Shown: one piece after another, positions 25,801 through 56,685 of the stretch | Layout of the letters: each line of letters begins with the position of its first letter | How positions within the stretch are numbered: the stretch's first letter is position 1 | Virus record (IMG/VR): IMGVR_UViG_3300035208_005087 | Coordinates: 64,545 to 128,544 of that record | From: a virus | Lineage: Duplodnaviria; Caudoviricetes | Strand: one strand, 5' to 3' | DNA length: 64,000 bases | The notes under the pieces: model-generated | What the model was told of the DNA's origin: nothing | Seen by the model: only the letters and a program-made list of their open reading frames with translations | The model's database searches: none | Translations under genes and position numbers: made by a program

Positions 25801-26024
25801 CCTGTAAACCCTTGTACAGCACCTTGTACCCAAGACCGGCCATCATAGTATTCTAAGGTCCCTGTAGGGTCCCCCAAATCGCTTTTGTGTAAAACAACGT
25901 ATCCTTCTTCAGCAACAAGGGCGTCCCTTTGCACCGTATCCACCACGGGTACCTTCAGGATCTCGCCCTTGTGTTTCATATTTAACGTTTTCACAACAAA
26001 CACCTCTTGAGTAACTGTACTCAA
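22851..26024 (-). CDS. Collagen-like (Gly-X-Y) fibre protein, GxQ/GxT-rich, with two identical knuckle domains
   Basis: Several hundred residues of G-X-Y triplets; duplicated [21 protein letters not shown] insert; C-terminal [14 protein letters not shown]. Start uncertain. Confidence 0.92.
24137..25443. repeat. 296-bp direct repeat (24137..24432 and 25148..25443) within a 9-bp-period collagen array
   Basis: Copies offset by 1011 bp; one mismatch seen (24160 a vs 25171 g). Confidence 0.9.
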
Positions 26025-29663: not shown

Positions 29664-30974
29664 TTATGCGAGTGCTTCTAGTCTCGCGATAGCCCCTTTC
29701 TTCACCTTCCAGTGAGACTTTTTGCTCACCCTGATAAAGTTCAGCTGGTCTTTGGATTCTAAAGACTCAACTAAGGCCACCTTCTGTTCCAGGTTCAAGG
29801 TTTCCCAGTTCTCTGGGTATTCCCCCTCTACTTCTGAAGGTTCTGCTTTCTTCGGGGCGGATTTGGCACTAGCTTTCTTGCTAGTCTTAGCCTTAGGTGC
29901 CGCTTTCTTTGGTGCGGGAGGAGGTGGGGGAGCCTTTTTGCCTTTATCTGCCACGGGTACTAATTTAGCGTACTCCGAAGCTAATAACTGACTGTCAGTC
30001 CATCCCGCGCTTTTCATTTCCTCATACGTGTATCCGTTGACGGTCACTTCCGTCGATATAGGCTGAGCTTCTGGGGGTACAGGTACTGGAGCCTTTTCCT
30101 GGGCTGCTCTGCGTTTTTCAATAGCAGCTAGTTTACTTGCCTCCCATTCCCTTCTTGCTGCCTCACTGGTCTTCGCCTGCTGGTGCACGTTGCCGTCTAC
30201 GATACCTTGTGACCCTACCACCGTCACGGTAGAGTGGGGGCTTTCTTTGTATTCTTTGTACTGTATTCCAGCTTGCTTTAAAACAGTCCTTTCTATCGCT
30301 TCCTCTGAAATAGGTGTACGGCTGGTCACTTCAGTCTTTTCTGCCTTGGAAGGAACCTGCCTCTTTAGGGGGATAAAACCCTCGTCGGCGTAGTCCGCTA
30401 CCTGTAGTTTTTCCCGTACAGTGCTTGGAGCCACCACCCCTCTGTCTGTACGTACCGTGGCTACCACCTCATTCTGGCCTTCTTCATCCAGTACTGCAAG
30501 CTTGGTTCTACCTGTCTGTGCTGTGGTAGCCCTCTGTTGTACCGATCCAGCATCCTGGTAAGATGTTGTACGGGCGATTACACCCTCTTCATCATTGTCT
30601 ACATTTAGACCTCGTTGAGAGGAAGTAGCGCTAGAATAAACAGTTCGGGCATTATTATCAGACTTGGCTTCATGGCGCACCTCCCTAACGATCTCCTGGC
30701 GTTCTTCCACTAAAGGAGCTCTCTCCTGCATCACAGGGGCTTGTTGTGGCACCTCTTGCTCTACGGCACCATCATCGACCAGTAACCTTAGCCATCCTAA
30801 CTTAATGCATTTAGACAAAGAAGTAGAGGCATCTTGTATGCTGCCGTACTTGACATTATAGCCATCATATTGAATGATTTCCCCTGGGGATACTGTCAAC
30901 CCCATATTTAAGGCGGGGTTGTTTATCAAAGATAAAGTGAAACGCTCAACGACGACGTAGCTTTTCATGTTCAT
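29664..30974 (-). CDS. Hypothetical low-complexity protein
   Basis: 436 aa; Pro/Ala/Lys-rich linkers; YTYEEMKSAGWTDSQLL module; own late motif and terminator. Confidence 0.7.
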   Translation of the reverse strand: MNMKSYVVVERFTLSLINNPALNMGLTVSPGEIIQYDGYNVKYGSIQDASTSLSKCIKLGWLRLLVDDGAVEQEVPQQAPVMQERAPLVEERQEIVREVRHEAKSDNNARTVYSSATSSQRGLNVDNDEEGVIARTTSYQDAGSVQQRATTAQTGRTKLAVLDEEGQNEVVATVRTDRGVVAPSTVREKLQVADYADEGFIPLKRQVPSKAEKTEVTSRTPISEEAIERTVLKQAGIQYKEYKESPHSTVTVVGSQGIVDGNVHQQAKTSEAARREWEASKLAAIEKRRAAQEKAPVPVPPEAQPISTEVTVNGYTYEEMKSAGWTDSQLLASEYAKLVPVADKGKKAPPPPPAPKKAAPKAKTSKKASAKSAPKKAEPSEVEGEYPENWETLNLEQKVALVESLESKDQLNFIRVSKKSHWKVKKGAIARLEALA

Positions 30975-31060: not shown

Positions 31061-31073
31061 ATTAGTAGATTAT
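31061..31073 (-). promoter_or_regulatory. Candidate late promoter
   Basis: Exact ATAATCTACTAAT. Confidence 0.75.
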
Positions 31074-31082
31074 GATGCCGCC

Positions 31083-31751
31083 TTATCCTTTGGCCAATGC
31101 CGCTAGCTTTTCCAGGATTTTTTCTTTCCTTAATTCTCTTGTTTGAGCAAGTTGGGCCAGATAATCCTCAGAATCCTCTATGTCCCCGGGCTTCTGCGTG
31201 TTTACCCGCATTTCACTTAAAGCCTGCCCAGGTTCTTCATCTGGGTCCCCCGTACTAGTCTCCAAGTCCTGTACGTGCTCTTCCTCGTCTTGAAGAATAT
31301 CCATAAGCTCATCCGCTAACCCATATTCCCCTAAAGACATAGCCTGTACGATCCTTTCTTTATACCTGGCCACCGCCGTGTGTTCATCCTCTAGATCCTG
31401 TAGTAACATCTCAGAGGATTTAGCGCTCTTCTTTATTTCCCCTAAGGATACATCTGGTACGCCCCCTAGCTGCGCGATACGGTCGGCTATGACGACAGAA
31501 TGCTCTATTTCTTCTTCCGCATGCTCTTTTAGATGTTGACGGATATTGTCGTATGCCGCCCCTCTCATTACTGCGTAGTGCTGGTAATACTGTAGGGCTG
31601 CTGTGTATTCTAGGATCAGATCCCCTTGCAGACCTTCTATCAGGTCCTCTTTAGTCACCTCCACCTCGGGAAGTAACACACTCGGGATAGCAGCCGTCTT
31701 CACACCCCTATCCTTCTTAAAAATCGTATTAAAAATATCTACAGTACCCAT
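31083..31751 (-). CDS. Bacterioferritin/ferritin-like di-iron protein with N- and C-terminal extensions
   Basis: Ferroxidase ligands LEYTAALQY..H, EEEIEH, DEHTAVARY, DEEEH; DRIAQLGGVP turn. Confidence 0.9.
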   Translation of the reverse strand: MGTVDIFNTIFKKDRGVKTAAIPSVLLPEVEVTKEDLIEGLQGDLILEYTAALQYYQHYAVMRGAAYDNIRQHLKEHAEEEIEHSVVIADRIAQLGGVPDVSLGEIKKSAKSSEMLLQDLEDEHTAVARYKERIVQAMSLGEYGLADELMDILQDEEEHVQDLETSTGDPDEEPGQALSEMRVNTQKPGDIEDSEDYLAQLAQTRELRKEKILEKLAALAKG

Positions 31752-31771
31752 GGTCTTTATACCCCTTTTTT

Positions 31772-34528
31772 CTAGGTTTCTACTAATTCTTTGTTTTCAG
31801 CTAACTTCTTCAAGGCGGCTAGCACCTTCTGGGCCTGCTTGTCTACCGTAGGTACCTTAGCCCTCTTGTTTTTCAGGTACCCTATAAGGGCCTTAACTTC
31901 TTGGTAAGGTAAGAACTCCTCTATCTCCGTCCCATCCGGGTACTCTTCCGAGTGCTCAGATACCCATTCTTCTAGGGCTTCTACTGCTTCCGTCTGCTTT
32001 TCCACCGCCGGTCCATCTATCTGGGAGAATACATTAGACAACGCCGTCTCTAACCCATAAAGGGGTAGCGATGAAGGTCTCCCCCTCTTGTACTGCGAGT
32101 ATGTCTCCCCCGTAGGAGCCGAAGGTTTTTCCTCTACAGGTTTTTCCTCTACAGGTTTTTCCTCTACAGGTTTTTCCTCAGTGGGTGTTTCCTCTACAGG
32201 TTTTTCCTCAGTGGGTGTTTCCTTCTTAGCATAGGGTGGGGAGGTCTCCTCCTTATCCTCCAACGCTTCCTCAGTCTCCTTCTTTATTGGTGATTCAGTA
32301 GTAAGAAGTGTTTCTTTTACCATACTTATGAGGTCTTCACCAACATCCTCTTTTGTCAATAAGGGGGCCTCCGGTAGCTTCTGAAAACTTTCTATGGTAT
32401 CTACCAAGGACTCTTTCTCTTCCGCAAAGGACTCTTGTACACTCTCAAGGCTTTCCTTAAAGTCCTCTAGCATACTTTCTACTTTTCCCCTGTCCGCACC
32501 CGAATCCCCTAGGGATCTTTCCACCTTAGTCAAAAGCCCCTTTAAGTACCCTACAGTAGCTCTGCGGATGACGGGGTCTGCTACCTTTCTGTTAAGGGCT
32601 TTCCCTGTCTCTTTTAGGGCCTCTTCTAAATACGCTACGACGTCCTCGGGTTTGCTTGTCACAAGCTCTCTTAAAGCCTTATTAACATCCGCCTCTAATG
32701 ATTCCGCCGCATCCTCTACCTGGGTAACCCCTTGTGCCTTCGTCTTTATCCTTTGCTCCAGACGCTCTTTTACCTCCTGCAGGGTTACTACATCCTCTGA
32801 AGGTACCTTCTCTCCTTTAGGGGTCTTCTCTTTAACAGCTTCCAGGAATGGGACCACTTCTTTATCCTGTATTTTCACAGGGGTCTTCTTGTAAGGGGCC
32901 TTTCTTTTTGCCTTAGCTTTTGCGGGCTTTTCCTTCTGGATACCGTCCCCTGGTGCCTTTTTAGAAGTCTCTCCCTTTTCCACACCAGTAGCATCGGGCT
33001 CAGGAGTATCCGGAGATTTCTTCTCTTCCTCGAGTACCGGACGACCTTTCTGTTTCTCCATCTCTTTTTTTAGGGCTCTTTCCTCTTTTAGCTTTTCTAC
33101 CTTTTTTTGTACGATCTTTATAACGGAAGGTAGCTTTTTACCCTCGGCATCTAGTATTCTTAGAATGTCTTCGTCAGGAGTGCTTGGTCTTACCGCTAAG
33201 CCCAATATAGCATTAAACATCTTCCTCATGGGTGACCCTTTAAATACATATGCAACGCTTAAGGTTTTCACATCTATGGGTCCTTCAGGAATAAGGTACT
33301 TACCCGCTATCGCATCCCCTATTCTTGTCACTTTGCTTTTTAGCTTGTCTGGCACCAGCCCATCCCGCACGACTACATCTGTCATGGCCCGCACTGCATC
33401 TCTATCACCCCTCTCTAGAGTTCTTCCCGCTATCTCTGTAGGCCTCTGCGATAGATCCCTACTGTCAATGCTATCCTCAATACCCTGCTGTTCTTCTTCG
33501 GGCACTCCCTGGTGTTCTTGTGCGACAGAGGGAACCTTCTCATAGTAGTTTCGCAGGGCACTGTACATATTGTTATCCCCGTCCAAAGCGATAAGATGAA
33601 AGGTGTTTATCACACTTTCTTGCTTTTTTGGGTTATCTCTGTAATGGTCTAAAGCCTTTTTGTAAGACTCCAGAAAGCCTCTTAGGTCTTTTGTGTATGG
33701 CAGGGTACCTACCTCTGCAGCCAACTTGAGACCTTCTATCTGACTTTCCTTGCGTTCAAAAATCTCGGGGTAGAACTCTCCTGTACTGCTAAAGCCATTG
33801 TTCTTCAAAGCTCTTTTTATCCTGTTCCACTCGGGCAGAACAGTTTCTTCCTCTATCTCTTTTATGGCTCTTAGATAGCCCTCTGTTTTGTCGGGATCAC
33901 CTTTCGTTAATATCTTCTGTACCCTTGCCCGTATAGCTGTAGTAGTTTTATCTAAACCCTCTTCCGCGAACCACTTGTTCTTCTCGTAATTCTTTTTACT
34001 TTGGGGATCTTTAACCTCTATCCCTCTCTTTTCTTTTGCTAACGACTCTACCATATCATTAACCATATCAAAAAGAGCTCCCCTGCTTAAGAGCAAGTCG
34101 TGTACAATGGAGTACAGTCGTTTAAGTGCCTCTGTGTTTCCCCGAAACACCCTTTGAGACGCGAAGATGTTCTCTACAAAGACCTTTGTCCACTTCCTTA
34201 GATTATTGATGTAGGAGGATATAGCAACGCTATCGGTAGCTCGTTTTTCTTGTAAAGATCTTTCCACCTCATCTAAGAACTTTTCTTGGTTCCCCTGCCA
34301 TAACCCTATCTGAGACAAAGCTTGTGCTGCATCTTTCAACCCTTGATCTAATGCTTTTTGGTTTTGCACCACCTTGTCCGAGAACCACTCAGGGTTTTCA
34401 CTTAAGTCTTCCTCTAGGGTATCCGCTAGATTTAAGAACACCTCTTCGACGTTCTTCTTATCCTTAAGAAGGTTTTGGGCCTTCTGGATTTCGCTGCTGC
34501 CTGCCATCTCTTTTTTTAAACCTACCAC
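31772..34528 (-). CDS. Large helical charged protein, putative internal head/ejection protein
   Basis: 918 aa, Glu/Lys-rich; EEKPV tandem repeats near 32120-32220; multiple K-x-A sites. Start may be ATG 34507. Confidence 0.6.
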   Translation of the reverse strand: MVGLKKEMAGSSEIQKAQNLLKDKKNVEEVFLNLADTLEEDLSENPEWFSDKVVQNQKALDQGLKDAAQALSQIGLWQGNQEKFLDEVERSLQEKRATDSVAISSYINNLRKWTKVFVENIFASQRVFRGNTEALKRLYSIVHDLLLSRGALFDMVNDMVESLAKEKRGIEVKDPQSKKNYEKNKWFAEEGLDKTTTAIRARVQKILTKGDPDKTEGYLRAIKEIEEETVLPEWNRIKRALKNNGFSSTGEFYPEIFERKESQIEGLKLAAEVGTLPYTKDLRGFLESYKKALDHYRDNPKKQESVINTFHLIALDGDNNMYSALRNYYEKVPSVAQEHQGVPEEEQQGIEDSIDSRDLSQRPTEIAGRTLERGDRDAVRAMTDVVVRDGLVPDKLKSKVTRIGDAIAGKYLIPEGPIDVKTLSVAYVFKGSPMRKMFNAILGLAVRPSTPDEDILRILDAEGKKLPSVIKIVQKKVEKLKEERALKKEMEKQKGRPVLEEEKKSPDTPEPDATGVEKGETSKKAPGDGIQKEKPAKAKAKRKAPYKKTPVKIQDKEVVPFLEAVKEKTPKGEKVPSEDVVTLQEVKERLEQRIKTKAQGVTQVEDAAESLEADVNKALRELVTSKPEDVVAYLEEALKETGKALNRKVADPVIRRATVGYLKGLLTKVERSLGDSGADRGKVESMLEDFKESLESVQESFAEEKESLVDTIESFQKLPEAPLLTKEDVGEDLISMVKETLLTTESPIKKETEEALEDKEETSPPYAKKETPTEEKPVEETPTEEKPVEEKPVEEKPVEEKPSAPTGETYSQYKRGRPSSLPLYGLETALSNVFSQIDGPAVEKQTEAVEALEEWVSEHSEEYPDGTEIEEFLPYQEVKALIGYLKNKRAKVPTVDKQAQKVLAALKKLAENKELVET

Positions 34529-35139
34529 GGGTACCCCTTAAGTTTTTCTTCAAAGTATTTATTTTTCTCTTCGGGGATAAACTCCTCCAACCCTGCTACC
34601 TTAAAAGCAAAAGTATCTGCAAAGTCGTCCCATGGGTTTGTCCTGGCGTAGTACCTAACAAACTTAGCATCCGGGTCATAATACCACTCCCCTGCCTTGG
34701 TTTTTCCCTCTTCCTTGTCTTTTATTATGATCTGGGCTTTACCTTTTTCTGGGGTCTCCGACCAGCCTGATAAGGATAACCATTCAGGACTAAGGGATAA
34801 CTCTCCCTGCTTATCGTCCCACCCATGCCCCAGCTCGTGGAATAAGATGTGGTCAAAAGCCTCTAACTCTTTTCCTTGCGAGTCCCTGTACAAGGTACTA
34901 TCATCTATCAGCTGTGAATTTAGCACTAATCTGTTGTCCACATAATAGCCATGGTTCGGGTAGTACTCCCTGGATGGGCCTAAATCCTCAAACCCCATAT
35001 TTTTTATACCACAGTCTATCACTAGAGGTTCTGGTAGCATACCTATCGAACGGGCTACCCTGGAGACCAATAAAGGGTCTATCGCATCTAAGATCGATAT
35101 TCGACACCTCTGTAATTTTTCTTTAGGGACACTAAGCAT
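34522..35139 (-). CDS. Zincin (HEXXH) metallopeptidase-like protein
   Basis: FHELGHGWD plus downstream YARTNPWDDFADTF. Confidence 0.75.
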   Translation of the reverse strand: MLSVPKEKLQRCRISILDAIDPLLVSRVARSIGMLPEPLVIDCGIKNMGFEDLGPSREYYPNHGYYVDNRLVLNSQLIDDSTLYRDSQGKELEAFDHILFHELGHGWDDKQGELSLSPEWLSLSGWSETPEKGKAQIIIKDKEEGKTKAGEWYYDPDAKFVRYYARTNPWDDFADTFAFKVAGLEEFIPEEKNKYFEEKLKGYPW

Positions 35140-35177
35140 GCTTTCTCCAAGGATAATATACTAAAGAGTCGTGGAGA

Positions 35178-35190
35178 ATTAACAGATTAT
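35178..35190 (-). promoter_or_regulatory. Candidate late promoter
   Basis: Exact ATAATCTGTTAAT. Confidence 0.75.
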
Positions 35191-35208
35191 GAAAGGGGAG
35201 ATCCTGTT

Positions 35209-35805
35209 CTAGTACCTAGACAGGACCTTTTTCTTCAGTTCTTTGATGGTGTCTGTAGGTTTTCCTATGTACTTTATGGCGATACCTTCGTTTTCTTCCC
35301 AGTCAACTATATTGTGATCCGTGTCATCTATCAGAATAGACCGAGCATCTGCGTATACCCCTTTTTCCCTATCAAAAACGTACTGCACATCTTGACCCAA
35401 ATTCTCCTGTACCCACACAGCCTTCCCTTCCTTTGCATAGGTGGAGTGCCCTGGAGAGGATAATATGATTGGGGAGAGAGGTTTCAGTGCATCCCATAAG
35501 ACCCTGCCATTCGGGAGCCATTCCATAGTGCTCCAGAACTCCAAGCTATTTGTAGTACCCCAAGATATATCCTGCATCTTAGTGAACGGTCTGCCCCCGT
35601 ACTCTTTGTACTGCTTTTCCCAGTTGGTAAGCACTCCGTCCATGTCTACGAATAACCTAAAAGCCTCCGTGTTAAAAACCTTTAAAAAGGACTGGTCTTC
35701 TACTAGGGTGCTTAACAATACACCCATGGACACATCCTTAACGCCAGCGCTAAGGGCACTTTTCCTTATGTACTTCTCTAGTACACTTGCTACTACACTC
35801 TTCAT
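35209..35805 (-). CDS. HAD-family 5'(3')-deoxyribonucleotidase-like protein with N-terminal leader
   Basis: Motif I FVDMDGVL, ILSSP, motif IV LIDD; likely start ATG 35805 with AAGGAGG RBS. Confidence 0.8.
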   Translation of the reverse strand: MKSVVASVLEKYIRKSALSAGVKDVSMGVLLSTLVEDQSFLKVFNTEAFRLFVDMDGVLTNWEKQYKEYGGRPFTKMQDISWGTTNSLEFWSTMEWLPNGRVLWDALKPLSPIILSSPGHSTYAKEGKAVWVQENLGQDVQYVFDREKGVYADARSILIDDTDHNIVDWEENEGIAIKYIGKPTDTIKELKKKVLSRY

Positions 35806-35827
35806 TGGGTACCTCCTTATAGGCACG

Positions 35828-35858
35828 AAAAAAGGACTAGAAAATATTCTAGTCCTTT
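35828..35858 (-). terminator. Intrinsic terminator of the capsid operon
   Basis: 12-bp stem AAAGGACTAGAA / TTCTAGTCCTTT followed by a T-run. Confidence 0.85.
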
Positions 35859-35880
35859 AAAAGATACAATTTTTTGTCGA

Positions 35881-36753
35881 TTATCGAGCAACTTTGATAC
35901 GGGTTAATCCCTTAGGATTAAATGCACCGATACCCACCATTTCAAAAATGGAGAAGCCGATTCGACGAGCTTTAGAATCATCAGCAGAAAGTACTGTCAA
36001 CTCAGTACGAACTGGGAAACGACCTAAAAATTCAGGTTCGGTACATACGTAGATGTAACCGGGTTCTACGATACGAGAAACCATGATTTGAGCGCCATGT
36101 AACTGACCGAACAAACCAGTTTTCAATAAGGTAGCCTGAGTTTCGATGTCCAACACATCACGACCCCATCGACGCAAGTCAGCAAAATCACGAGCATTCA
36201 TGAAAATGTATGCTACGCGGTTACCATACTGTTCTACTTCCGCGAACGCGTCAATAAAAGCAGATGGGCTGATAGGAGCATTAACGTTAACTTGTGGGTT
36301 TGGAACGCCACCGTTAAAGCCTGCAACAGACAATACGTCCATTACGTCAAATACGCGTGAATCTTCAGCAGCTTGTACCTGAGCTTTACCCAAGTTCATA
36401 GAGCGTTCTACTAAGTCGTAGCGACGTTCTTTGATTTGTGATAAAGGAACTTCAGGGTTGGCAGCAATTTCGAACAAAGAAAACAGAACACGTTCGCCAC
36501 GTGAAGTGCTTACAATGTTTTCACCTTCGTCAGATACAGCGTATGCTTTTACTTCTGGATCCTTGTCGTACAAAGGTAATGCACCATCAGGTAGTTCGTC
36601 CACTTCAAAGGCTTTTCGGCCAATGGAGGTGTAGTCTCTACGGTCACGTAAAGGCTGCTGCATAGAAGAAGCAATCTTGTGGCGACCAGCCTGAGTGTTG
36701 ATGTGCTTGCCGATTACGGCGTTTCTTTGAGCGTTTGAATTCTTCATGTTCAT
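35881..36753 (-). CDS. Major capsid protein, HK97 fold, short and encapsulin-like
   Basis: Order protease-scaffold-decoration-MCP; GRKAFEVDELP.G, AAEDSRVF, FMNARDFADL, GQLHGAQIMVS, GAFNPKGLTRI; strongly biased codon usage. Confidence 0.88.
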   Translation of the reverse strand: MNMKNSNAQRNAVIGKHINTQAGRHKIASSMQQPLRDRRDYTSIGRKAFEVDELPDGALPLYDKDPEVKAYAVSDEGENIVSTSRGERVLFSLFEIAANPEVPLSQIKERRYDLVERSMNLGKAQVQAAEDSRVFDVMDVLSVAGFNGGVPNPQVNVNAPISPSAFIDAFAEVEQYGNRVAYIFMNARDFADLRRWGRDVLDIETQATLLKTGLFGQLHGAQIMVSRIVEPGYIYVCTEPEFLGRFPVRTELTVLSADDSKARRIGFSIFEMVGIGAFNPKGLTRIKVAR

Positions 36754-36763
36754 CAGAACCCCC

Positions 36764-37330
36764 TTAAACGCGCAACTGCACGGTCATAAGTTTATTGTTA
36801 GCAGTCGGAGGGTCCAACAGGATTGCTACTACAGTTGCATCAGCAGCTGCGGCGGCATCAGCCAAACCAGACGCGTTAGTTAACAGACCGTTTTGAGAAG
36901 CGTATAGTTTCTCGCCGGCTGCATATACCAGAGGGGTAGTTCCGTCTGTAGCTACGGTTTCGTACACAGGGATTTCTACCACGGTACCAGTACCATGTAA
37001 ATAAGTGATGCCACCAGAAGCTTCAGAACGGGTAGAATCATAGGCTTCACCGTCCGCATTACGTACTGCGATACCTACGATACCGTCTAAGGCACCTTTG
37101 GTTGCTTTTGCTGGGCCTACAGTAAGAGCAGCTACTACTGCTACTACTGAACCTGCCAAGATACCGTCGGGGGTATCTGTAGACAATGTTGAGTTTGCTA
37201 ATTGCTGAGCATTGACTCGGTTTTGCAACTCTAAACCTGCATCGCTAATGGCGCAAAGACCATTAAGGGTACCACGGTAAAGAGGTTGTAATTGGAGATC
37301 AGAAGTCAGCTTGTTGCTTAATCCTCTCAT
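36764..37330 (-). CDS. Capsid decoration/cement protein
   Basis: Ala/Gly/Thr-rich beta protein (YAAGEKLYASQNGLLT) directly before the MCP. Confidence 0.65.
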   Translation of the reverse strand: MRGLSNKLTSDLQLQPLYRGTLNGLCAISDAGLELQNRVNAQQLANSTLSTDTPDGILAGSVVAVVAALTVGPAKATKGALDGIVGIAVRNADGEAYDSTRSEASGGITYLHGTGTVVEIPVYETVATDGTTPLVYAAGEKLYASQNGLLTNASGLADAAAAADATVVAILLDPPTANNKLMTVQLRV

Positions 37331-37400: not shown

Positions 37401-38483
37401 CTATTTCGCAAAAACGTGAGACACGTCAGGAGTAGTTCCCCACACAGCAGCAAGTTCATCTTCTTCACTTCGAGCGGCAGACGCTTTTCGTACCATGCCT
37501 GCACTCATCTGTGATGGAGCCGGTTCATATGCTTGGAAAATGGATGCTAAGAGGTCTTGGCTGCTCGCTGTCTTAGCGGTGCCTTCACCCTCTTCACCTT
37601 CTTCCTCGCCTGCCCCGTCTTCTTCACCAAAAGTAATTTCCATTTCACCTTCGTCGCCTTCTACAGCAGGTGCTTCTTCGCCTTCCATACCTTCGTCGGC
37701 GTCATCGCCCATATCCATAGCTGGTTCGTTTTCCATTGCAGGAGCTTCGTCAGCAGGTTTTTGTTTCAATGCTTCTAACTCAGCTTTCAAAGAGGCTACA
37801 GTGGCTTCCAAGGCGGCTAGTTTTTCGTCACCTTCTTCAGCTTTTTCTTCACCGGCTTTCTTTTCGTCACCTTCATCAGCTTTTTCTTCTGCTTCGCCGG
37901 CTTTCTTTTCTTCGCCTTCTTCAGCTTTTTCTTCTGCTTCGCCTGCTTTCTTTTCGTCACCTTCTTCAGCTTTTTCTTCTGCTTCGCCTGCTTTCTTTTC
38001 GTCACCTTCTTCAGCTTTTTCATCACCGGCTTTCTTTTCTTCGCCTTCTTCTTTAGCAGATTGTAAAACATCTTCGGCTAAAGCAGCTTGGCGGCTCAAG
38101 ATCCCGTCTAAGGCAAAGTCCGGTAAAAACATCAAGTCTGTAGCGTTTGCTGTGATCACTTCTTCATTGGCCCCTGGTAACATACATTCAGATGCTGTAA
38201 CACACTTAGCAGCATGTTCACGCACGTTCTTAGAACTACGGATTTCGTTAGCGAATGCTAAACGTAATTCCCCGATGTTCATGTCATTGCGTTCTTTTAC
38301 ATCCTTGTCGTGCAAAGCCTTTGTTTCTTGAGTAGAAATAGGATCTTCACCGAATTCGGAAGGACCCCCAATATCATACTTCTTAGCGAAGGCATCACCG
38401 GTGTTGTTTTCTTGAGTGGCATCCAATGGGCCACTCATTTGTTCGCCAGCTTTTTTTCCTGTAAGACGAGTTCTCTGTGTCAT
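37401..38483 (-). CDS. Prohead scaffolding protein
   Basis: Highly acidic, EKKAG tandem repeats, coiled coil LEATVASLKAEL; lies between protease and MCP; likely start ATG 38483. Confidence 0.75.
   Translation of the reverse strand: MTQRTRLTGKKAGEQMSGPLDATQENNTGDAFAKKYDIGGPSEFGEDPISTQETKALHDKDVKERNDMNIGELRLAFANEIRSSKNVREHAAKCVTASECMLPGANEEVITANATDLMFLPDFALDGILSRQAALAEDVLQSAKEEGEEKKAGDEKAEEGDEKKAGEAEEKAEEGDEKKAGEAEEKAEEGEEKKAGEAEEKADEGDEKKAGEEKAEEGDEKLAALEATVASLKAELEALKQKPADEAPAMENEPAMDMGDDADEGMEGEEAPAVEGDEGEMEITFGEEDGAGEEEGEEGEGTAKTASSQDLLASIFQAYEPAPSQMSAGMVRKASAARSEEDELAAVWGTTPDVSHVFAK
37820..38050. repeat. Imperfect 30-39-bp tandem repeats encoding (E/D)EKKAG(E/D)(AE)EKA(E/D)EG
   Basis: Five KKAG units visible in DNA and protein. 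Confidence 0.85.
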
Positions 38484-38629
38484 TTTCAATCCTCTTTTTT
38501 TTGGGTTCAGAGTTTTTTGTTCTTCCCCCCTTGAGGCATAACGCTCCCTGCGGGGTCCATCCTTTCCCGGGCAAATGTCAACAAGTAGTATGTCTTCCCT
38601 TTCCCCGAAACTTTATGTTTTTTAAAAGG

Positions 38630-38655: not shown

Positions 38656-40302
38656 TTAAAACTGCTTAAGTATCTTAGACCATGTCGAAAAAACACTCTT
38701 TTCTCTAGCCGTTAGAGGCCGTACAGCCTTAGTCATAAAACCTAAAACAGGGTCTTTGACATTCGAGAACCCTGCGGTTTTTATGTACGAGTATACATCC
38801 CTCGCTACCGGTGTCCCATGCCTTCTTGCTTCTATAAAATCCAGCACTCCCATCATGTCATCCCTAGTAAATCCCAGTTTCTTTAGTACCGAGGGGTTCT
38901 TGGCCACAGCAAAAGCCATGATATTGGCCGCAGTTTTTATGTCTAAAATTTGGGATATGTCGATGGAGTATCTATCCTTCACATATTTAGCAGTCTTGCG
39001 GGTAGAGGCCTCTTTAACAATGCTGTCAGCCTCCCTAAATACATCCTGGTGCTCTATTATACCTTGAGCCACCTCATCCTGCTTACTCTTCTCTTGTAGA
39101 GTCTTCTGTAATTTGTCTAAGAGCACTTGCTTTACATTGGTAATTACCGAGTCCTCTATACTTTTTCTTATGTCCGCAAAAGGGGTCGCATCCGCTTCTT
39201 CCGGAGATACTCCAGGTTCTTCCCCTTCTTCTCCTCCTGATTCTCCCTCATCTGGGAATACACCGCCGGCATCTCCCTCTTCCGGAACAGCCGGCCCATC
39301 CTCTTGAGGCATTTCTGGGAATGCATCTGTACCCTCTTCCGTAGCAGGTGGTTCCTCAAAGCGCGCGGCACCTTCATCAGTTTCCTCATCAGCATTTTTT
39401 ACAGAAGCTGCTTTCAAGAAGGCGCCTACATCGTGATGCTCCGTCTTAAGATCTATTCTTTTCTGTAAAGAGGCCATTAAAGGGTCTACCCCTTTTTGTT
39501 CCTTTTGGGACTTTTCTAAGTTCATCTTAATAGTTTCAGGAGGGGACACTATATTATGGAGTACTGCCCCTGTGAAAGCTGGTTTTCGTACCCATGAGGC
39601 ATCTATGAACTGTACGCTCGAAGGGTCGTCTTTGTGGCCACAAATTTCTGCGATGATTCTTTTCTTACCAAATTCATCATAGAAGTAGTTTTTTCTGTAG
39701 TATTGGATATGCTCACACTGCTCTGCTTCATCTGCTGCCACGTTTCCACACCTACTACACCTGGAGTACTGTATTAAGCACCCCATGCTTACTGCGTTAT
39801 ATTCCTTCCTTAAAATCTTTTCACACATGTCGGGGAATTCCCAACTTGTGGCTATGAGCAAATCTACATAATAAGTAGTATTAGGTTCTCCGTCCTGTCC
39901 TACCCCTAAGTCTACCTCTCGTATAGCTGCATCAATAACCTTACCTCTAGAGAACTCCGGTTGCTGAATATGCTCTACGTAGTTATTGGCCCCTACAAAA
40001 GTCCTAAAAGTCTTGTACAGCAACTCTCGTTCCCAACAGTCACCATTGTTGTTCACAAATACAGAATGGTCCGGTTTTATGTAATAGTCCGACTTCAGGT
40101 CTTTAGAATCCGCCAACTCGATATCTACAGATGCCATGATAGTAACATGTGAGAGAAGCCATTTGTTAGGGTCGTATAAGGACAAAACCTCCGAGGCTGT
40201 TTTTGTCATGCCCTGGGGTCTTTTGGACGTAGCTTTTAACCATGCCCCTCGATCTACTTTGGGCGTTATTAAATCTGCGCTACTAGTTCTTCTCATGGCC
40301 AT
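38656..40302 (-). CDS. Prohead maturation protease (HK97/S78-like) with Zn-finger insert and acidic tail
   Basis: NNNGD..NYVEH (His), AVSMGC (Ser), CSRC..CEHI insert, DASWVRKPAF (compare E-x-S-x-V-x-x-P-A); position upstream of the scaffold. Confidence 0.75.
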   Translation of the reverse strand: MAMRRTSSADLITPKVDRGAWLKATSKRPQGMTKTASEVLSLYDPNKWLLSHVTIMASVDIELADSKDLKSDYYIKPDHSVFVNNNGDCWERELLYKTFRTFVGANNYVEHIQQPEFSRGKVIDAAIREVDLGVGQDGEPNTTYYVDLLIATSWEFPDMCEKILRKEYNAVSMGCLIQYSRCSRCGNVAADEAEQCEHIQYYRKNYFYDEFGKKRIIAEICGHKDDPSSVQFIDASWVRKPAFTGAVLHNIVSPPETIKMNLEKSQKEQKGVDPLMASLQKRIDLKTEHHDVGAFLKAASVKNADEETDEGAARFEEPPATEEGTDAFPEMPQEDGPAVPEEGDAGGVFPDEGESGGEEGEEPGVSPEEADATPFADIRKSIEDSVITNVKQVLLDKLQKTLQEKSKQDEVAQGIIEHQDVFREADSIVKEASTRKTAKYVKDRYSIDISQILDIKTAANIMAFAVAKNPSVLKKLGFTRDDMMGVLDFIEARRHGTPVARDVYSYIKTAGFSNVKDPVLGFMTKAVRPLTAREKSVFSTWSKILKQF

Positions 40303-41151: not shown

Positions 41152-41310
41152 AAATCTGCTAGATTTTTGCGTGAACTACCCCTGACCTAAAGAGTCAGGG
41201 GCTTCGGACATCAACGCCTTGCCTACCTTTTTGGTCTTACGACCAGAGGCATTTGGCAACGGCTCCGTCTTTTTTTGTTTAGAGTCCGAATCGGTACACG
41301 ACCCAGACTG
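41152..41310 (-). ncRNA. TnpB omegaRNA (right-end RNA) with flanking guide GCAAAAATCTAGCAGATTT
   Basis: Established architecture: the omegaRNA overlaps the tnpB 3' end and right end, and the guide comes from the flank. Boundaries approximate. Confidence 0.6.
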
Positions 41311-44604: not shown

Positions 44605-44866
44605 TTACGTTCCCTCGTTTACCTTTAGGTATGTAGCTATTATTATCTCTTCCTTCCGCTCTATACTCTTGCATGTACTCCCTTCCATAGTCCCTTGTTT
44701 CCGAGATAGGGGTCATATGCTGTCTCCTAGGAGGCTTATAATTAGGCTGCTTCCTATAAGGTCTTTCTTTATCATCCAGCTTCTTAAGTGCGGCCTCTTT
44801 ACTTTCTTCCTCTTCTTCCACCGCCTGTCGTATGAGGCTGGAAATGTGTACCCATTTACTCTTCAT
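44588..44866 (-). CDS. Hypothetical protein
   Basis: 92 aa, AGGAG RBS, overlaps the portal stop. Confidence 0.6.
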   Translation of the reverse strand: MKSKWVHISSLIRQAVEEEEESKEAALKKLDDKERPYRKQPNYKPPRRQHMTPISETRDYGREYMQEYRAEGRDNNSYIPKGKRGNVNEYTE

Positions 44867-46703
44867 CTGTATCTCCTAACAAGGCTAGGACCTTTTCTGC
44901 TAAGGATGGGTCCTCTGCTATTTTCTTAAAGAGTGCATTGGCTGCTGATTTGCCTTTACTCGCAAACCGGATACCTCCACCTGCCCCCTCTTCTCCTGGG
45001 GGTGTTGAGAGTAGAGCTAACCCCATGTTCTGGGCTAGCTTCTCCGATAAGTTCGTTCTAGTCACCAGCTCTTGTCCAGCCTGTTGGTAAGCTCCTCTCA
45101 ACAAGTCATTAAAGGATGCGTCCTTCACAGTGAACATATCATTCTCTAGCTTAGCTGCAGCAGCATCCCCATCCAGCCCTAGTATGTCAAAAACGTCATC
45201 CACAGGGGCACTACCTTTGTTATATAGAGCCATTACTTGCTCGAATACTGAATCATTGTCTCGTATGGATAGTCTTGTGAAAGATATTTTAGGTACGATA
45301 ACGGTTTCATTACCGTACTCGTCTTTCTCTACAAACCCTTTTCTTCGGGCGACCGGCTCAAATAGGCTCTTTTCTATAAACTCTTGTAAGACATCACGGA
45401 AAAGCATATACTGGATGTTTAGAAGTTCCAATGATATCTTAGAGCCTGAATACGATGCCTCTCCTGTCATCATTTCTTTAGTAACACCCAAGCCTGCGTA
45501 AAGGTCCGAGTCATATCTCTCAAACTCAGAGTTGAGGTCTAGGAGGCGTTGATTAGAGCCGAACTCTTCCCAATGCACCTCATAGTTTGCAATGATAGAG
45601 TAGTCTGGGTCCATAAGGGCTAAGTCCACCTGGGACCGTAGATCATCTACTTGGCCTTCATTGAGGTTCTCCCCCCAAACTATTCTTGTTGGGGTCATGT
45701 GTCTGCTAGCTATGGACGTTTGCGCTTGTCTTAATTTGTCTTTTACTAAAAGGGTGTTTATGCATCTTTCCAAAATGGAAACACCCATGGTCTCATACTG
45801 GGATTTCTTACGTGCTAAGTGATACGCGAAGGATCCTTCATAAGGGTCTTGCTGCAGGGTTAACGCAGCATTCCCTTCTAGTCCATCCATAAGATCCTCG
45901 GGCACTCTTGACTGTGTTGTTCTATCCTTGGTCTGTTCTTCCACACCCCCCACGCTAGCCTTAGCTAGGAACCCTCGGGTCTCTGCATCTGGGAGGTATT
46001 CTAAGACTGGGTTATCCGCAAAAGGTTTAGGTACTATCCTTACCTGGTCTGGTGGCAGTACCATTATCTTTCTCCACCCTATATAATTAGGGTCTGTATC
46101 TCTTACTTGGAATTTACTTAGTAGCAAGTCCGACTGCGCTTTACCTTTTTCCTGTAAGACTGCTTTCTCTTGTGTCCCTAAATCCTGGTATGGTGCATGG
46201 TCTTCAACAAATAGGAAAGCATTGCCAAATAGCCAGTATTCATGACTGATTTCTGTTAGGGTCTTGAGTAGTTTAAGTCTATCTACCATTCTAGAGAAAA
46301 ATCTGTAGGAGTATTCTGCTATATGGGGGTTAGACGCTTTAGGCTTTCTTAGACGTATTTTAGATAAAGGTATTGTAGAATGTAGATCTATAGCTGCGCC
46401 CACTATTTCCGTGGAGTTATAAAAATGTCTATACCACGCCCTTCTTTCTCTAAGGTTCTGTGGTTTTTCTAAAAAGTCTGTCGATAATTGAGGAGAGTAC
46501 CAGTTACCTCCCGACCCGCTCATCACATCCCCGGACGAGTACACACTAGCGAGTTTGGGCGTGGCTTTTTCATTACGAGCTTGTTTAGCTATTTGTCTAG
46601 CCTGCATCTCTTTTGCTGTTAAGGGACGAACAGTCCCTACAGGTCCCTTAGACTCGTCCACGTTTATATTCGCTACTTTTACTGTGGGTTTCTTCTTTTC
46701 CAT
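44856..46703 (-). CDS. Portal protein
   Basis: IVGAAIDLH, EYWLFGNAFLF, VLPPDQV, GVSILE, AGLGVTKEMMTGE, IEKSLFEPV; lies between terminase and protease. Confidence 0.85.
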   Translation of the reverse strand: MEKKKPTVKVANINVDESKGPVGTVRPLTAKEMQARQIAKQARNEKATPKLASVYSSGDVMSGSGGNWYSPQLSTDFLEKPQNLRERRAWYRHFYNSTEIVGAAIDLHSTIPLSKIRLRKPKASNPHIAEYSYRFFSRMVDRLKLLKTLTEISHEYWLFGNAFLFVEDHAPYQDLGTQEKAVLQEKGKAQSDLLLSKFQVRDTDPNYIGWRKIMVLPPDQVRIVPKPFADNPVLEYLPDAETRGFLAKASVGGVEEQTKDRTTQSRVPEDLMDGLEGNAALTLQQDPYEGSFAYHLARKKSQYETMGVSILERCINTLLVKDKLRQAQTSIASRHMTPTRIVWGENLNEGQVDDLRSQVDLALMDPDYSIIANYEVHWEEFGSNQRLLDLNSEFERYDSDLYAGLGVTKEMMTGEASYSGSKISLELLNIQYMLFRDVLQEFIEKSLFEPVARRKGFVEKDEYGNETVIVPKISFTRLSIRDNDSVFEQVMALYNKGSAPVDDVFDILGLDGDAAAAKLENDMFTVKDASFNDLLRGAYQQAGQELVTRTNLSEKLAQNMGLALLSTPPGEEGAGGGIRFASKGKSAANALFKKIAEDPSLAEKVLALLGDTDEE

Positions 46704-54780: not shown

Positions 54781-56685
54781 TCAACGATATCTATTTCCAC
54801 CAGATTTATAGATCATTCCTCCCCGGGGTCTTTTTAGATCGAAACTCCTTAGTCGAGCCTCGGCCCTAGCCCTGGCCATATTGCTGGTAGCTGCCCTTCT
54901 ACTCCCTACCTGGCCGGCACCCCCAATACTACCACCCTTGGCCATATACTCGGAAGCCACGAAGACTGCCCTGGCAAACGCATCACTAAGGTCATCATGA
55001 GCGTCCTTGACATCTGGCATAAACACCTTTATTATGTACTTAGATTTGTTTATTGCCTGCAGTTTTAATAATTCCTTGACAAGACCCAACCGTACTGGTT
55101 TGTTTTGAGCATCCACTTCTCCCGTACCAGGTATCCGTACCCCTTTTGACACTAATTTGGCCATAAGATTCTGGTACACATCAGAGTTTAGCTTATCATT
55201 AAACTCCCTATATTTTATCTGTGTCAGCCCCTTATTCTTAAGCAAGGGCATTATAGACATATGGTAATACTGATCCTGTAGCCCTTCGTGGATGTTAAAC
55301 CTGCTGCATATATCCGCTATCTTCGCCACCACTTCCTCTGGGTCATACGAGGGTAACCCTCCCTCCGGGGGTGCTTCCTTCTCCTTAGACGCATGCCACT
55401 CCTCATACCAGTCCAAAATAATTACCGGGGACCCTTGTTCATCATCCTCTATATGCACCACGCATAAAGCCGTGGCATCTTTTTTCAAACCCACATCTAT
55501 TCCTAAGAAATAAGGAACCCTCTTCAGAGACCTATCCTGCATCCTTGCACTCTCTTCAATACACCTAGTAACCACAGACTCATCATCTAACCACCCCGAT
55601 AATCTATCTGAAAAGTTAGCCCCATACTCCGTATCATACCCCAATGGGTTTCCGTAATACTCAGACTTGAGGAACTTAGTAGGTATTGTAGGATTCATCT
55701 CCCATGATGGTAACTGTACCATCAGTACATCTGTACCCGCCACTGGGTCAAAAGATCTCTGGTGTGTGTCCCACAATAGCCCTGCCTTCTCCGCCGGTGA
55801 TGATATCAGCACAGTTTTACCCGCCGGTGATCCATCAGGGTGTGAGAACATTGCTAACGATGGTTTTACCGCCTCATATACTGCTTTATCGCTTTTATCC
55901 GATGAGGCCTTGCCCGCTAGGTCTTTAAAAAAGTGAGCTACCTCATCAAGAGCTATAAATATATTACTGGGTCCGCGTAGACCCTTCGCAGAACAAGCAT
56001 CCGCTATAAACTCGATAGTGTGCTTTTTAGGGTTCTCCGAGAAGTCCTCTTTATCCCTAAGACTTTTTAATTCCAATTCAGTCTTATTGGGCTCTTTCCT
56101 CATAAAGTCTTTAAAGAAGAGGGAGCTCTCTAATGCCCCGGCTACTCTGTTGTATAAGATAGTAGCATTTTCCTCTGTAGTAGATAAACATGTCATAGAT
56201 ATGACTTCGTCAGGCAGTATACCGAAATACCCTTGTGGGTGTCTTCGAGAGAGCATCTTATACATCTCATACCCTGCAATAAATGACGTTACCGATGTCT
56301 TGGTACCTCGCCGACCGCACACGAGTGCGAGCATCTGGTGATCCCCATTCAAGTTCTTGGTATTTAGTCGCCCCTCATCATACAGATAATCCCTAAACTC
56401 CACCTCTGTGAAAGAGTATAACAATTCTTCGTTAAACCGGTCATGTATCGGGATGCGTTTCTCTTTGTTATCCAACTCCAATCCGTAAAAGGCTTTCAAT
56501 ATCCATCTCTGTGCGGGGAGCAGGGGAGGCATGCCTGGACCAGACCCCATACCAAAGCCCCAAGGTGCTTCTACAAATGTCAGTATGTCCACGCAGTTAG
56601 CATTGTCCTGGGTATCTACTCCCGAGGCCCTTCCTAACATTTCGGCCAGACTGGCACCTTTTGGGACTATGATATTAGAACTCAT
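54781..56685 (-). CDS. terL: Terminase large subunit
   Basis: Walker A GRRGTKT, Walker B IALDE, coupling motif ISSP, nuclease FLGIDVG and HDDLSDA. Confidence 0.92.
   Translation of the reverse strand: MSSNIIVPKGASLAEMLGRASGVDTQDNANCVDILTFVEAPWGFGMGSGPGMPPLLPAQRWILKAFYGLELDNKEKRIPIHDRFNEELLYSFTEVEFRDYLYDEGRLNTKNLNGDHQMLALVCGRRGTKTSVTSFIAGYEMYKMLSRRHPQGYFGILPDEVISMTCLSTTEENATILYNRVAGALESSLFFKDFMRKEPNKTELELKSLRDKEDFSENPKKHTIEFIADACSAKGLRGPSNIFIALDEVAHFFKDLAGKASSDKSDKAVYEAVKPSLAMFSHPDGSPAGKTVLISSPAEKAGLLWDTHQRSFDPVAGTDVLMVQLPSWEMNPTIPTKFLKSEYYGNPLGYDTEYGANFSDRLSGWLDDESVVTRCIEESARMQDRSLKRVPYFLGIDVGLKKDATALCVVHIEDDEQGSPVIILDWYEEWHASKEKEAPPEGGLPSYDPEEVVAKIADICSRFNIHEGLQDQYYHMSIMPLLKNKGLTQIKYREFNDKLNSDVYQNLMAKLVSKGVRIPGTGEVDAQNKPVRLGLVKELLKLQAINKSKYIIKVFMPDVKDAHDDLSDAFARAVFVASEYMAKGGSIGGAGQVGSRRAATSNMARARAEARLRSFDLKRPRGGMIYKSGGNRYR

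What the first reader, a model, noticed from the sequence alone, without database searches (positions are those of the whole stretch)
31083..36753. Encapsulin-like phage capsid with a leader-tagged bacterioferritin in the same late module
Seen: the MCP is only 290 aa with no delta domain, and segments (GRKAFEVDELP.G; RVLFSLFEI..; AAEDSRVF) read like the Family 1 encapsulin/linocin M18 pattern. About 4 kb downstream, under a late motif, is a ferritin with intact ferroxidase ligands, a ~30-aa leader containing KTA and a ~55-aa acidic/basic tail. Established: encapsulins share the HK97 fold and commonly load ferritin-like cargo via terminal peptides. Inference: a genuine virion (portal, terminase and protease present) may package an iron-sequestering protein, e.g. 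to protect its DNA. This would be a viral counterpart of, or link to, encapsulin-ferritin compartments.
Basis: partly seen in the sequence, partly recalled or inferred. Interest (0 to 1): 0.75.

Follow-up and report, generated by a model that had tools for sequence, protein, structure and literature searches.

The report
Leader-tagged ferritin in megaphage head module
A giant phage related to Bacillus phage G has an ordinary phage capsid protein, no closer to encapsulins than to other phage capsids, but its late genes include a bacterial-type ferritin with a phage-specific leader peptide that looks like a capsid-loading and protease-cleavage tag, so these phages may pack an iron-handling protein with their DNA.

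Summary
The window is part of a 128.5-kb fragment of a phage-G-like megaphage. The 290-aa MCP belongs to the phage G gp27 family (PDB 6wkk E 1e-57; NCBIfam capsid_Caudo_2 above cut-off). The encapsulin HMM (Linocin_M18) finds nothing. In fold searches it ties with HK97 gp5, other phage capsids and encapsulins. It is a minimal HK97 fold with no demonstrated special link to encapsulins.

The ferritin is real: PF00210, all six di-iron ligands invariant, no heme-binding Met. It is the last gene of a late unit (HExxH protein, 918-aa protein, ferritin). Seven related contigs keep it in the same slot. 38 more distant relatives lack it there.

The 33-aa leader is conserved in all 13 phage copies, which form one clade. 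The 138-aa bacterial homologues lack it. It ends in K-T/A-A-S. The same motif marks the N-terminus of the prohead protease (also in phage G), the end of the protease domain and the scaffold C-terminus.

An unrelated Dps-like ferritin family of related megaphages (at least 325 proteins) carries a different leader that also ends in [KR]-x-A-S. Phage G's own Dps-like protein was reported in particle proteomics.

Capsid loading through a cleavable leader is my leading reading (about 0.5) and is unproven. Earlier scan notes on this same genome raised the K/R-x-A and late-motif ideas.

The parts
54781..56685 (-). Large terminase subunit (634 aa)
   Evidence: phrog_2 and phrog_17415, terminase large subunit, E 8e-15 and 3e-14
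44856..46703 (-). Portal protein (615 aa)
   Evidence: phrog_16240, portal protein, E 3e-35
38656..40302 (-). Prohead maturation protease with a roughly 250-aa C-terminal extension. KTAS at residue 34, KAAS at residue 297 just after the protease domain.
   Evidence: phrog_18299 E 2e-14. BLASTP to phage G gp19 gives E 7e-17, and the alignment starts at GMTKTAS / GLVKTAA. The post-domain [KR]-A-A-[SRK] is conserved in about 40 of 51 orthologues.
37401..38489 (-). Acidic scaffold candidate (362 aa) with tandem acidic repeats and a conserved C-terminal block (KTAS ... SIF ... VRKAS ... LW..PDVS..F)
   Evidence: Position between protease and MCP. C-terminal block conserved across 16 orthologues. 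No Pfam or PHROG hit.
36764..37330 (-). 188-aa head accessory protein (putative decoration protein, by position only)
   Evidence: Lies directly upstream of the MCP in 76 of 81 related loci, the position of phage G gp26 'capsid decoration'. BLASTP to gp26 is not significant, E 0.11.
35881..36753 (-). Major capsid protein, 290 aa, minimal HK97 fold, phage G gp27 family
   Evidence: PDB 6wkk E 1e-57. NF042927 at 159 bits, cut-off 80. phrog_2522 E 4e-50. AF2 model pLDDT 94.9. Fold searches.
35209..35826 (-). 5'-deoxyribonucleotidase-like HAD enzyme (205 aa) with a roughly 50-aa N-terminal extension
   Evidence: phrog_2643 E 1e-20, with the match starting at residue 53. Alignment of orthologues.
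35178..35190 (-). Late-type promoter motif ATAATCTGTTAAT heading the unit HExxH, 918-aa protein, ferritin
   Evidence: 16 matches in the window against 1.6 expected; 0 of 100 shuffles reach 16. Sequence context.
34522..35139 (-). HExxH (HELGH) zinc-peptidase-like protein, 205 aa; its end overlaps the start of the next gene by 7 nt
   Evidence: Weak Peptidase_Mx match, E 0.0055. Motif conserved in orthologues. Coordinates.
31772..34528 (-). 918-aa charged, repeat-containing protein of unknown function, always directly upstream of the ferritin
   Evidence: No family hit. Orthologues of 905-1074 aa abut or overlap the ferritin start in the related loci.
31653..31751 (-). Ferritin leader, residues 1-33: F..IF, then V-K-T-A-A-I-P, then L-P
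   Evidence: Conserved in 13 phage ferritins and absent from the 138-aa cellular homologues
31257..31637 (-). Ferritin-like four-helix-bundle domain (residues 39-165) with a complete di-iron ferroxidase site
   Evidence: PF00210 E 3.6e-23. Best PDB sequence matches are 2qqy, Bfr entries and DpsL 2vzb, E 5e-14 to 3e-13. Invariant ligands.
31086..31250 (-). Ferritin C-terminal tail (residues 168-222): acidic linker, then a basic amphipathic helix-like end
   Evidence: Conserved (SRE.R+ ... KL..LKKA type) in P0001-P0009; replaced by a short PPY/PY end in P0010-P0013
31061..31073 (-). Next late-type motif, 10 nt after the ferritin stop; it starts the following unit (436-aa protein)

Best explanation
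This is the head-morphogenesis region of a phage-G-like megaphage.

The MCP is an ordinary member of the phage G gp27 family. It is a bare HK97 fold that assembles with a separate scaffold, so it looks encapsulin-sized, but it shows no closer kinship to encapsulins than to other phage MCPs.

The ferritin is a bacterial Bfr/DpsL-like ferroxidase. It appears to have been acquired once by one sub-clade and fixed as the last gene of a late transcription unit. On acquisition it gained a phage-specific 33-aa N-terminal leader, and in most members a C-terminal tail.

Inferred mechanism. The leader acts like a capsid targeting sequence and brings the ferritin into the assembling procapsid. The prohead protease then removes the leader at the [KR]-x-A-S site that the ferritin shares with the protease's own termini and with the scaffold C-terminus. 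The mature ferritin would stay with the packaged DNA, where it could sequester iron and limit oxidative damage to a very large genome.

Shown: the family assignments, the synteny, the conservation of the leader and motif, and the late-unit structure. Inferred: cleavage, capsid residence and protective role.
For: MCP family. PDB 6wkk (phage G gp27) E 1e-57, the only PDB sequence hit at E<=10. Profile A4 against PDB gives 6wkk 3e-117, then phage MCPs, then the PfV encapsulin at only 0.033. NF042927 is above cut-off. There are 1,679 homologues, on contigs up to 620 kb.

Ferritin. PF00210 and invariant ligands.

Synteny. The order HExxH, roughly 1000-aa protein, ferritin, roughly 430 aa, roughly 450 aa, Zn-ribbon holds in L007, L010, L012, L013, L014, L015 and L017, with stop/start overlaps.

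Origin. Phage ferritins form one clade with 100/99 support, separate from the 138-aa homologues, one of which sits in a clearly bacterial context.

Motif. The leader is conserved in all 13 copies. K-T/A-A-S also occurs at the protease N-terminus in the window, L019, L085 and phage G gp19, just after the protease domain in about 40 of 51 orthologues, and twice in the conserved scaffold C-terminus.

Independent parallel. 4 of 5 near-complete related genomes encode a Dps-like protein instead. That family has at least 325 members. 108 of 120 carry a GPPYLP-type leader, and 89 of those 108 have [KR]-x-A-[SA] within 30 aa after it, mostly 4-7 aa after. Control windows in the Dps core give 17 of 481.

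Precedent. The T4 CTS and giant-phage propeptides are removed by the prohead protease, which also auto-cleaves its own C-terminus (PMC5694885). Phage G's ferritin-like gp346 was reported in particle proteomics (PMC12484599).
Against: There are no virion data for this clade.

The phage G particle proteomics also listed many replication enzymes, so that detection is weak, and gp346 is not an orthologue of this ferritin (E 0.048).

The leader HMM finds no second cargo in the 128-kb record or in 81 related loci.

The leader-versus-scaffold profile comparison is not significant (E 0.11).

The late region also holds a nucleotidase, so gene position alone does not prove a structural role.

K-x-A-A/S also occurs in the consensus of the MCP N-arm helix, so the motif by itself need not mean cleavage.

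I chose the motif after seeing it. Genome-wide, K[TA]A[SA] occurs 8 times against 3.75 expected.
Confidence: 0.5

Rival explanations
1. The ferritin is a late-expressed auxiliary gene that acts in the infected cell's cytoplasm. It would buffer iron or detoxify peroxide during replication and packaging, or supply iron to phage enzymes. The leader and tail would serve another purpose, such as control of oligomerisation or binding to the co-transcribed 918-aa or HExxH proteins. It would not be packaged.
For: The same late region carries a clearly enzymatic 5'-deoxyribonucleotidase gene. The ferritin is tightly co-transcribed with two proteins of unknown role. Phage G's ferritin-like gene lies among replication genes. 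The Dps-like genes of relatives lie 26-36 kb from the MCP. No second protein carries the leader.
Against: A cytoplasmic enzyme has no obvious need for an N-terminal leader that all cellular homologues lack. Two unrelated ferritin lineages in this phage family carry different leaders that end in the same [KR]-x-A-S motif, which also marks the protease and scaffold termini.
Confidence: 0.3
2. The ferritin is a virion component but not capsid-lumen cargo. It could be an externally bound head or fibre accessory, or a protein that is unfolded and ejected into the host with the DNA to manage iron or ROS early in infection.
For: It sits in a run of genes leading to a 'virion structural protein' match and a collagen-like fibre. 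Its basic C-terminal helix could bind DNA or another structural protein. Ejected internal proteins with propeptides are known in giant phages (PMC5694885).
Against: There is no similarity to known decoration or tail proteins. Ferritin-superfamily proteins normally act as 12- or 24-mers that could not pass through a tail, by general knowledge of the family. The motif is shared with the internal assembly proteins (protease, scaffold), not with tail genes.
Confidence: 0.12
3. The MCP is a close relative of Family 1 encapsulins, and the ferritin is loaded by an encapsulin-type cargo-loading peptide, which would make this an evolutionary link between phage capsids and encapsulin-ferritin compartments.
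Confidence: 0.03

Closest known systems
Bacillus (Lysinibacillus) phage G head: gp27 MCP (PDB 6wkk), gp26 decoration, gp19 protease
   Same: The MCP is homologous (36% identity, E 1e-57) and about the same length, with no delta domain. The decoration-then-MCP gene order is the same. The protease is homologous, with K-T-A-A/S at the aligned N-terminal position. Both are megaphage-scale genomes.
   Different: Phage G has no Bfr-like ferritin in its head module. Its ferritin-superfamily gene (gp346, Dps-like, roughly 100-aa N-extension) lies among replication genes and is not an orthologue.
T4 capsid targeting sequences (IPI-III, Alt) and the propeptides of phiKZ/SPN3US-type giant-phage head proteins
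   Same: A short N-terminal leader on an otherwise ordinary protein. A shared short motif at the leader boundary that also occurs in scaffold or core proteins and in the self-processing protease (PMC5694885).
   Different: The motif here is [KR]-x-A-S, not L/I-x-E or S/A/G-x-E. The cargo is a ferritin-superfamily protein. Neither cleavage nor packaging is demonstrated.
Family 1 encapsulin with ferritin-like cargo (T. maritima encapsulin/Flp, EncFtn, M. xanthus EncA/EncB-D)
   Different: No sequence membership in Linocin_M18. The ferritin is Bfr/DpsL-like, not Flp or EncB type. The tag is N-terminal and unlike the GSL-type loading peptide. The shell belongs to a tailed virus that packages DNA.
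Bacterioferritin / Dps-like (DpsL) proteins, e.g. PDB 2qqy, 2vzb, 8sqo
   Same: Four-helix bundle with an intrasubunit di-iron site. All six ligands are present. Best PDB sequence hits have E about 5e-14 to 3e-13.
   Different: No heme-ligand Met (Ile82). Below the TIGR00754 cut-off. It has the added leader and tail. The oligomeric state is unknown.

Membership tests
Phage G-type HK97-fold MCP (NCBIfam NF042927 capsid_Caudo_2) | Score above the curated cut-off of the family model | tested here: met
   159.3 bits against a cut-off of 80, covering residues 10-286
Phage G-type HK97-fold MCP (NCBIfam NF042927 capsid_Caudo_2) | Homology to the solved phage G gp27 capsid protein | tested here: met
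   6wkk_A at E 1e-57 for the single sequence and 3.4e-117 for the profile
Phage G-type HK97-fold MCP (NCBIfam NF042927 capsid_Caudo_2) | Encoded in a tailed-phage head module (portal, terminase, protease, scaffold) | tested here: met
Family 1 encapsulin (Pfam Linocin_M18, PF04454) | Match to the family HMM | tested here: not met
   No hit at E<=10 on the protein or on the whole 128-kb record, while the control genomes did match
Family 1 encapsulin (Pfam Linocin_M18, PF04454) | HK97 fold without a delta domain or insertion domains | tested here: met
Family 1 encapsulin (Pfam Linocin_M18, PF04454) | Cellular operon with cargo and without portal, terminase or tail genes | tested here: not met
   Portal, TerL, protease, scaffold and fibre genes are present
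Encapsulin ferritin-like cargo (TIGR04535 ferrit_encaps; NF058679 EncB_fam) | Score above the curated cut-off | tested here: not met
   16.1 bits against 125, and 13.5 against 90
Ferritin-like domain (Pfam PF00210) | Match above the gathering score, with di-iron ligands present | tested here: met
   82.5 bits against 24.5. E48, E81, H84, E123, E156/157 and H159 are invariant.
Bacterioferritin proper (TIGR00754 bfr) | Equivalog score above cut-off | tested here: not met
   49 bits against 125.55
Bacterioferritin proper (TIGR00754 bfr) | Heme-ligand Met (Met52 in E. coli numbering) two residues before the ExxH histidine | tested here: not met
   The sequence reads E-I-E-H with Ile82 at that position. 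The position of the Met is from general knowledge of Bfr.
Bacterioferritin proper (TIGR00754 bfr) | 24-subunit cage | not testable with these tools
Capsid-targeted, protease-processed head-internal proteins (T4 CTS type) | Short N-terminal leader absent from non-phage homologues | tested here: met
   Present in 13 of 13 phage copies; the 138-aa cellular homologues start at the ferritin domain
Capsid-targeted, protease-processed head-internal proteins (T4 CTS type) | Leader ends in the prohead protease's cleavage motif, shared with scaffold and protease | tested here: inconclusive
   A shared, positionally conserved [KR]-x-A-S is seen, but no cleavage data exist for this protease family
Capsid-targeted, protease-processed head-internal proteins (T4 CTS type) | Mature protein present inside virions | not testable with these tools
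   No cultured member of this clade. The only evidence is indirect: phage G particle proteomics for a non-orthologous Dps-like protein.

The most novel reading that the evidence does not exclude
Phage-G-like megaphages may routinely load ferritin-superfamily proteins into their capsids. At least two lineages would have been recruited independently: a Bfr-like one in this clade's head module, and a widespread Dps-like one elsewhere in the genome. Each carries a different leader ending in the same [KR]-x-A-S prohead-protease site. That would give tailed viruses an iron-sequestering, DNA-protecting internal protein, a functional viral counterpart of encapsulin-ferritin compartments that arose by convergence and not by descent.
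Probability: 0.4. Interest if true: 0.8.

Novelty: new variant of a known kind. Interest (0 to 1): 0.58.

Why it matters
If the leader really loads ferritin into heads, three things follow.

1. It would define a previously undescribed capsid-targeting and cleavage code ([KR]-x-A-S) for a very large, globally distributed and almost entirely uncultured megaphage family.

2. It would show that viruses with half-megabase genomes carry their own iron and oxidative-damage protection inside the particle.

3. It would provide a natural peptide tag for loading foreign proteins into very large capsids.

It also corrects a tempting but unsupported idea. A small, delta-less HK97 capsid protein is not by that fact an encapsulin relative.

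Tried and rejected
There is therefore no binding test.

2. The first MCP model, built from a shallow 32-sequence alignment, was poor (pLDDT 56.5). I discarded its Foldseek list in favour of the 83-sequence model.

3. Is the leader a copy of the scaffold C-terminus? hhalign of A5 against A6 gives E 0.11, which is not significant. Only the short motifs F/L-x-x-I-F and K-x-A-S are shared.

4. Is the leader a modular tag on other cargo? The leader HMM found only ferritins in the 106 ORFs of the record and in 7,996 six-frame ORFs of 81 related loci.

5. Do the nucleotidase and HExxH proteins carry the same leader? Their N-terminal extensions are conserved but lack the motif.

6. Is the C-terminal tail related to the C-termini of the neighbouring 436-aa and 918-aa proteins? 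There is only a vague amphipathic likeness, so I dropped the idea.

7. tblastn of the ferritin against 50,697 phage records found only Pseudomonas phage Y5 at E 2e-6. No cultured phage carries this type.

8. Gonzalez et al. 2020 (phage G structure and proteomics) is not in the held library.

9. Paper searches for virion or phage ferritin turned up only the phage G multi-omics paper as relevant.

10. The 188-aa protein compared with phage G gp26: not significant (E 0.11).

Full report
**What the window is.** The window is the right half of a 128,544-bp IMG/VR virus record that CheckV rates 28% complete. Nearly all genes lie on the minus strand. In transcription order the region reads:

- TerL, 54781-56685
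- portal, 44856-46703
- a TnpB-type transposase insertion, 41176-42411
- a 548-aa prohead protease, 38656-40302 (phrog_18299)
- a 362-aa acidic scaffold candidate
- a 188-aa accessory protein
- the 290-aa MCP, 35881-36753
- a nucleotidase
- an HExxH protein
- a 918-aa protein
- the ferritin, 31083-31751
- further conserved proteins, ending in a 1057-aa collagen-like fibre

**The MCP by sequence.**
- In the phage collection its nearest relatives are a 485-kb uncultured phage (60% identity), Tunturiibacter phage Tunturi_5 (45%) and Bacillus phage G gp27 (36%). Mycobacteriophage and Gordonia myoviruses follow at about 26%.
- Against all PDB sequences the only hit at E<=10 is the phage G capsid protein 6wkk, at 1e-57.
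- NCBIfam places it in capsid_Caudo_2, at 159 bits against a cut-off of 80.
- The metagenome protein search returned 1,679 homologues, nearly all 280-295 aa, on contigs up to 620 kb.

A length of 290 aa without a delta domain is therefore the norm for this large megaphage family, which uses a separate scaffold.

**The MCP and encapsulins.**
- The Linocin_M18 model gives no match at E<=10, on the protein or anywhere in the record, while the control genomes did match.
- A profile of 83 diverse family members hits 6wkk at 3e-117. Next come two phage MCPs (9e-4 and 7e-3). The P. furiosus encapsulin-like particle follows at 0.033.
- With that alignment AlphaFold gave a confident model, pLDDT 94.9.
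- Foldseek ranks HK97 gp5 first (E 4e-12), with other phage capsids and encapsulins interleaved at TM about 0.5.

They reflect the common HK97 core. They do not show encapsulin kinship.

**The ferritin.**
- It matches PF00210 at E 3.6e-23 over residues 39-165.
- All six di-iron ligands are invariant in an alignment of phage and cellular homologues.
- Its best PDB sequence matches are a B. anthracis SigB-operon ferritin-like protein, several bacterioferritins and a B. fragilis Dps-like protein, all with E between about 5e-14 and 3e-13.
- It falls well below the bacterioferritin equivalog cut-off, and far below both encapsulin-cargo models.
- Ile stands where Bfr has its heme-ligand Met. 'Bfr/DpsL-like non-heme ferroxidase' is the accurate name.

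**Transcription unit.** The motif ATAATCTNNTAAT occurs 16 times in the window against 1.6 expected, 15 of them on the coding strand. One copy precedes the HExxH gene (35178-35190). The next begins 10 nt after the ferritin stop (31061-31073). The HExxH and 918-aa genes overlap by 7 nt. Only 20 nt, carrying a Shine-Dalgarno-like AAGGGG, separate the 918-aa gene from the ferritin start. The ferritin is therefore the last gene of a three-gene late unit.

**Is the placement conserved?** Yes, within a sub-clade.
- Seven independent contigs from different samples (L007, L010, L012, L013, L014, L015, L017) carry a leader-bearing ferritin in exactly the same slot. It is often overlapped by the stop codon of the upstream roughly 1000-aa gene.
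- Where the contig includes the MCP, it is 76-93% identical to the window's.
- Of 80 further MCP relatives fetched from IMG/VR, 39 have at least 8 kb downstream of the MCP. One of these is L019, the same contig as L010, where a homing-endonuclease insertion pushes the ferritin just past the fetched flank. The other 38, with MCP 61-67% identical, have no ferritin there.
- One of them, L095, keeps the rest of the gene order without a ferritin.
- The phage ferritins form a single clade with 100/99 support. Their nearest relatives are 138-aa proteins, one of which was checked and lies in an ordinary bacterial context.

This fits a single capture followed by vertical inheritance in the module.

**The leader.** Cellular homologues begin at the ferritin domain. 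All 13 phage copies add about 30-40 residues with the pattern F-x-x-[IM]-F-G, a short basic spacer, [VIM]-K-[TAS]-[AS]-S-[IV]-P, then [LIV]-P. The K-T/A-A-S element recurs at boundaries in the head-assembly proteins:

- at the start of the protease domain in the window, L019 and L085, and at the aligned position in phage G gp19
- directly after the protease domain, as [KR]-A-A-[SRK], in about 40 of 51 orthologues
- twice in the conserved C-terminal block of the scaffold

**A second ferritin lineage with the same motif.** Four of five near-complete related genomes that lack the Bfr-like gene encode a Dps-like PF00210 protein 26-36 kb from the MCP. That family has at least 325 members, on contigs up to 512 kb. 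Its N-terminal leader is different and very well conserved (I-W-Q-D-P-S-S-Y ... G-P-P-Y-L-P). In 89 of the 108 leader-bearing members, [KR]-x-A-[SA] follows within 30 residues, mostly 4-7 residues after the leader motif. Control windows of the Dps core give 17 of 481. The middle residue varies freely while the K/R, A and S positions hold. That is the signature of a short functional site. Several Bfr-like copies also carry a PPY/PPF element after the domain that recalls the GPPYLP of the Dps-like leaders.

**How I read this.** The established model comes from T4 and the phiKZ/SPN3US giants. There, internal head proteins carry N-terminal targeting propeptides. The prohead protease removes them at a motif shared with scaffold or core proteins, and the protease trims its own C-terminus (PMC5694885). 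The pattern found here fits that model with a different motif. The recent phage G multi-omics paper lists its ferritin-like gp346 among particle proteins and suggests DNA protection (PMC12484599). That dataset also lists many replication enzymes, and gp346 is not an orthologue of this ferritin, so I treat it as weak support.

**Points against.**
- There are no virion data for this clade.
- No other cargo shares the leader.
- The leader-versus-scaffold profile comparison is not significant.
- The late region also contains plain enzymes.
- K-x-A-A/S also occurs in the consensus of the MCP N-arm helix.
- I noticed the motif before testing it.

**Verdict.** I put capsid loading through a cleavable leader at about 0.5, a non-packaged late auxiliary role at about 0.3, another virion role at about 0.12, and a true encapsulin link at about 0.03.

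**Novelty.** The MCP part of the finding is ordinary. The ferritin part is a new variant of a known kind (capsid-targeted, protease-processed internal proteins). The cargo is unusual, and the candidate motif appears undescribed in the library I searched. Two first-stage notes on this same genome had raised the K/R-x-A idea and the late motif. I tested the late motif directly and tested the K/R-x-A idea comparatively.

Noticed in passing
L101-L104; proteins P0316-P0435; alignment A7: A large family (at least 325 proteins, on contigs up to 512 kb) of megaphage Dps-like 'DNA-binding ferritin-like' proteins. Its N-terminal leader is nearly invariant (IWQDPSSY ... GPPYLP) and is followed by [KR]-x-A-S. 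This may be a more general case than the finding itself.
   Followed up: partly
window 41176-42411 (-): A transposase gene (phrog_506, E 4e-126) sits between the portal region and the head genes. It looks like a mobile-element insertion inside the morphogenesis region.
   Followed up: no
window 29664-30974 (-): The 436-aa protein just downstream of the ferritin has a Pro/Ala/Lys-rich, histone-H1-like stretch near its C-terminus. It is conserved in position in all ferritin-bearing relatives and is a candidate DNA-binding head-internal protein.
   Followed up: no
window 35209-35826 (-): A 5'-deoxyribonucleotidase-like HAD enzyme lies directly after the MCP. It has a conserved helical N-terminal extension of about 50 aa that the PHROG profile does not cover.
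   Followed up: partly
L010 229-2091; L013 2359-4236: In two relatives, LAGLIDADG homing-endonuclease genes (one fused to an N6_N4 methyltransferase domain) are inserted immediately downstream of the MCP gene.
   Followed up: no
window 37401-38489 (-): The scaffold candidate has about five tandem copies of an acidic unit of roughly 15 aa (EEKAEEGDEKKAGEA type). Its opposite strand also carries long spurious ORFs.
   Followed up: no
window 3088-60877, minus strand: ATAATCTNNTAAT occurs 16 times at up to one mismatch against 1.6 expected, 15 of them on the coding strand at gene boundaries. It is a candidate phage late promoter.
   Followed up: partly
L095 14734-15693: In a ferritin-less relative, a 319-aa protein in the equivalent region starts with a leader-like segment containing K-I-A-S. 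It may be another tagged enzyme.
   Followed up: no
window 22851-26024 (-): A 1057-aa collagen-like (G-x-y repeat) fibre protein with an internal duplicated non-collagen domain. It is conserved at the end of the syntenic block.
   Followed up: no
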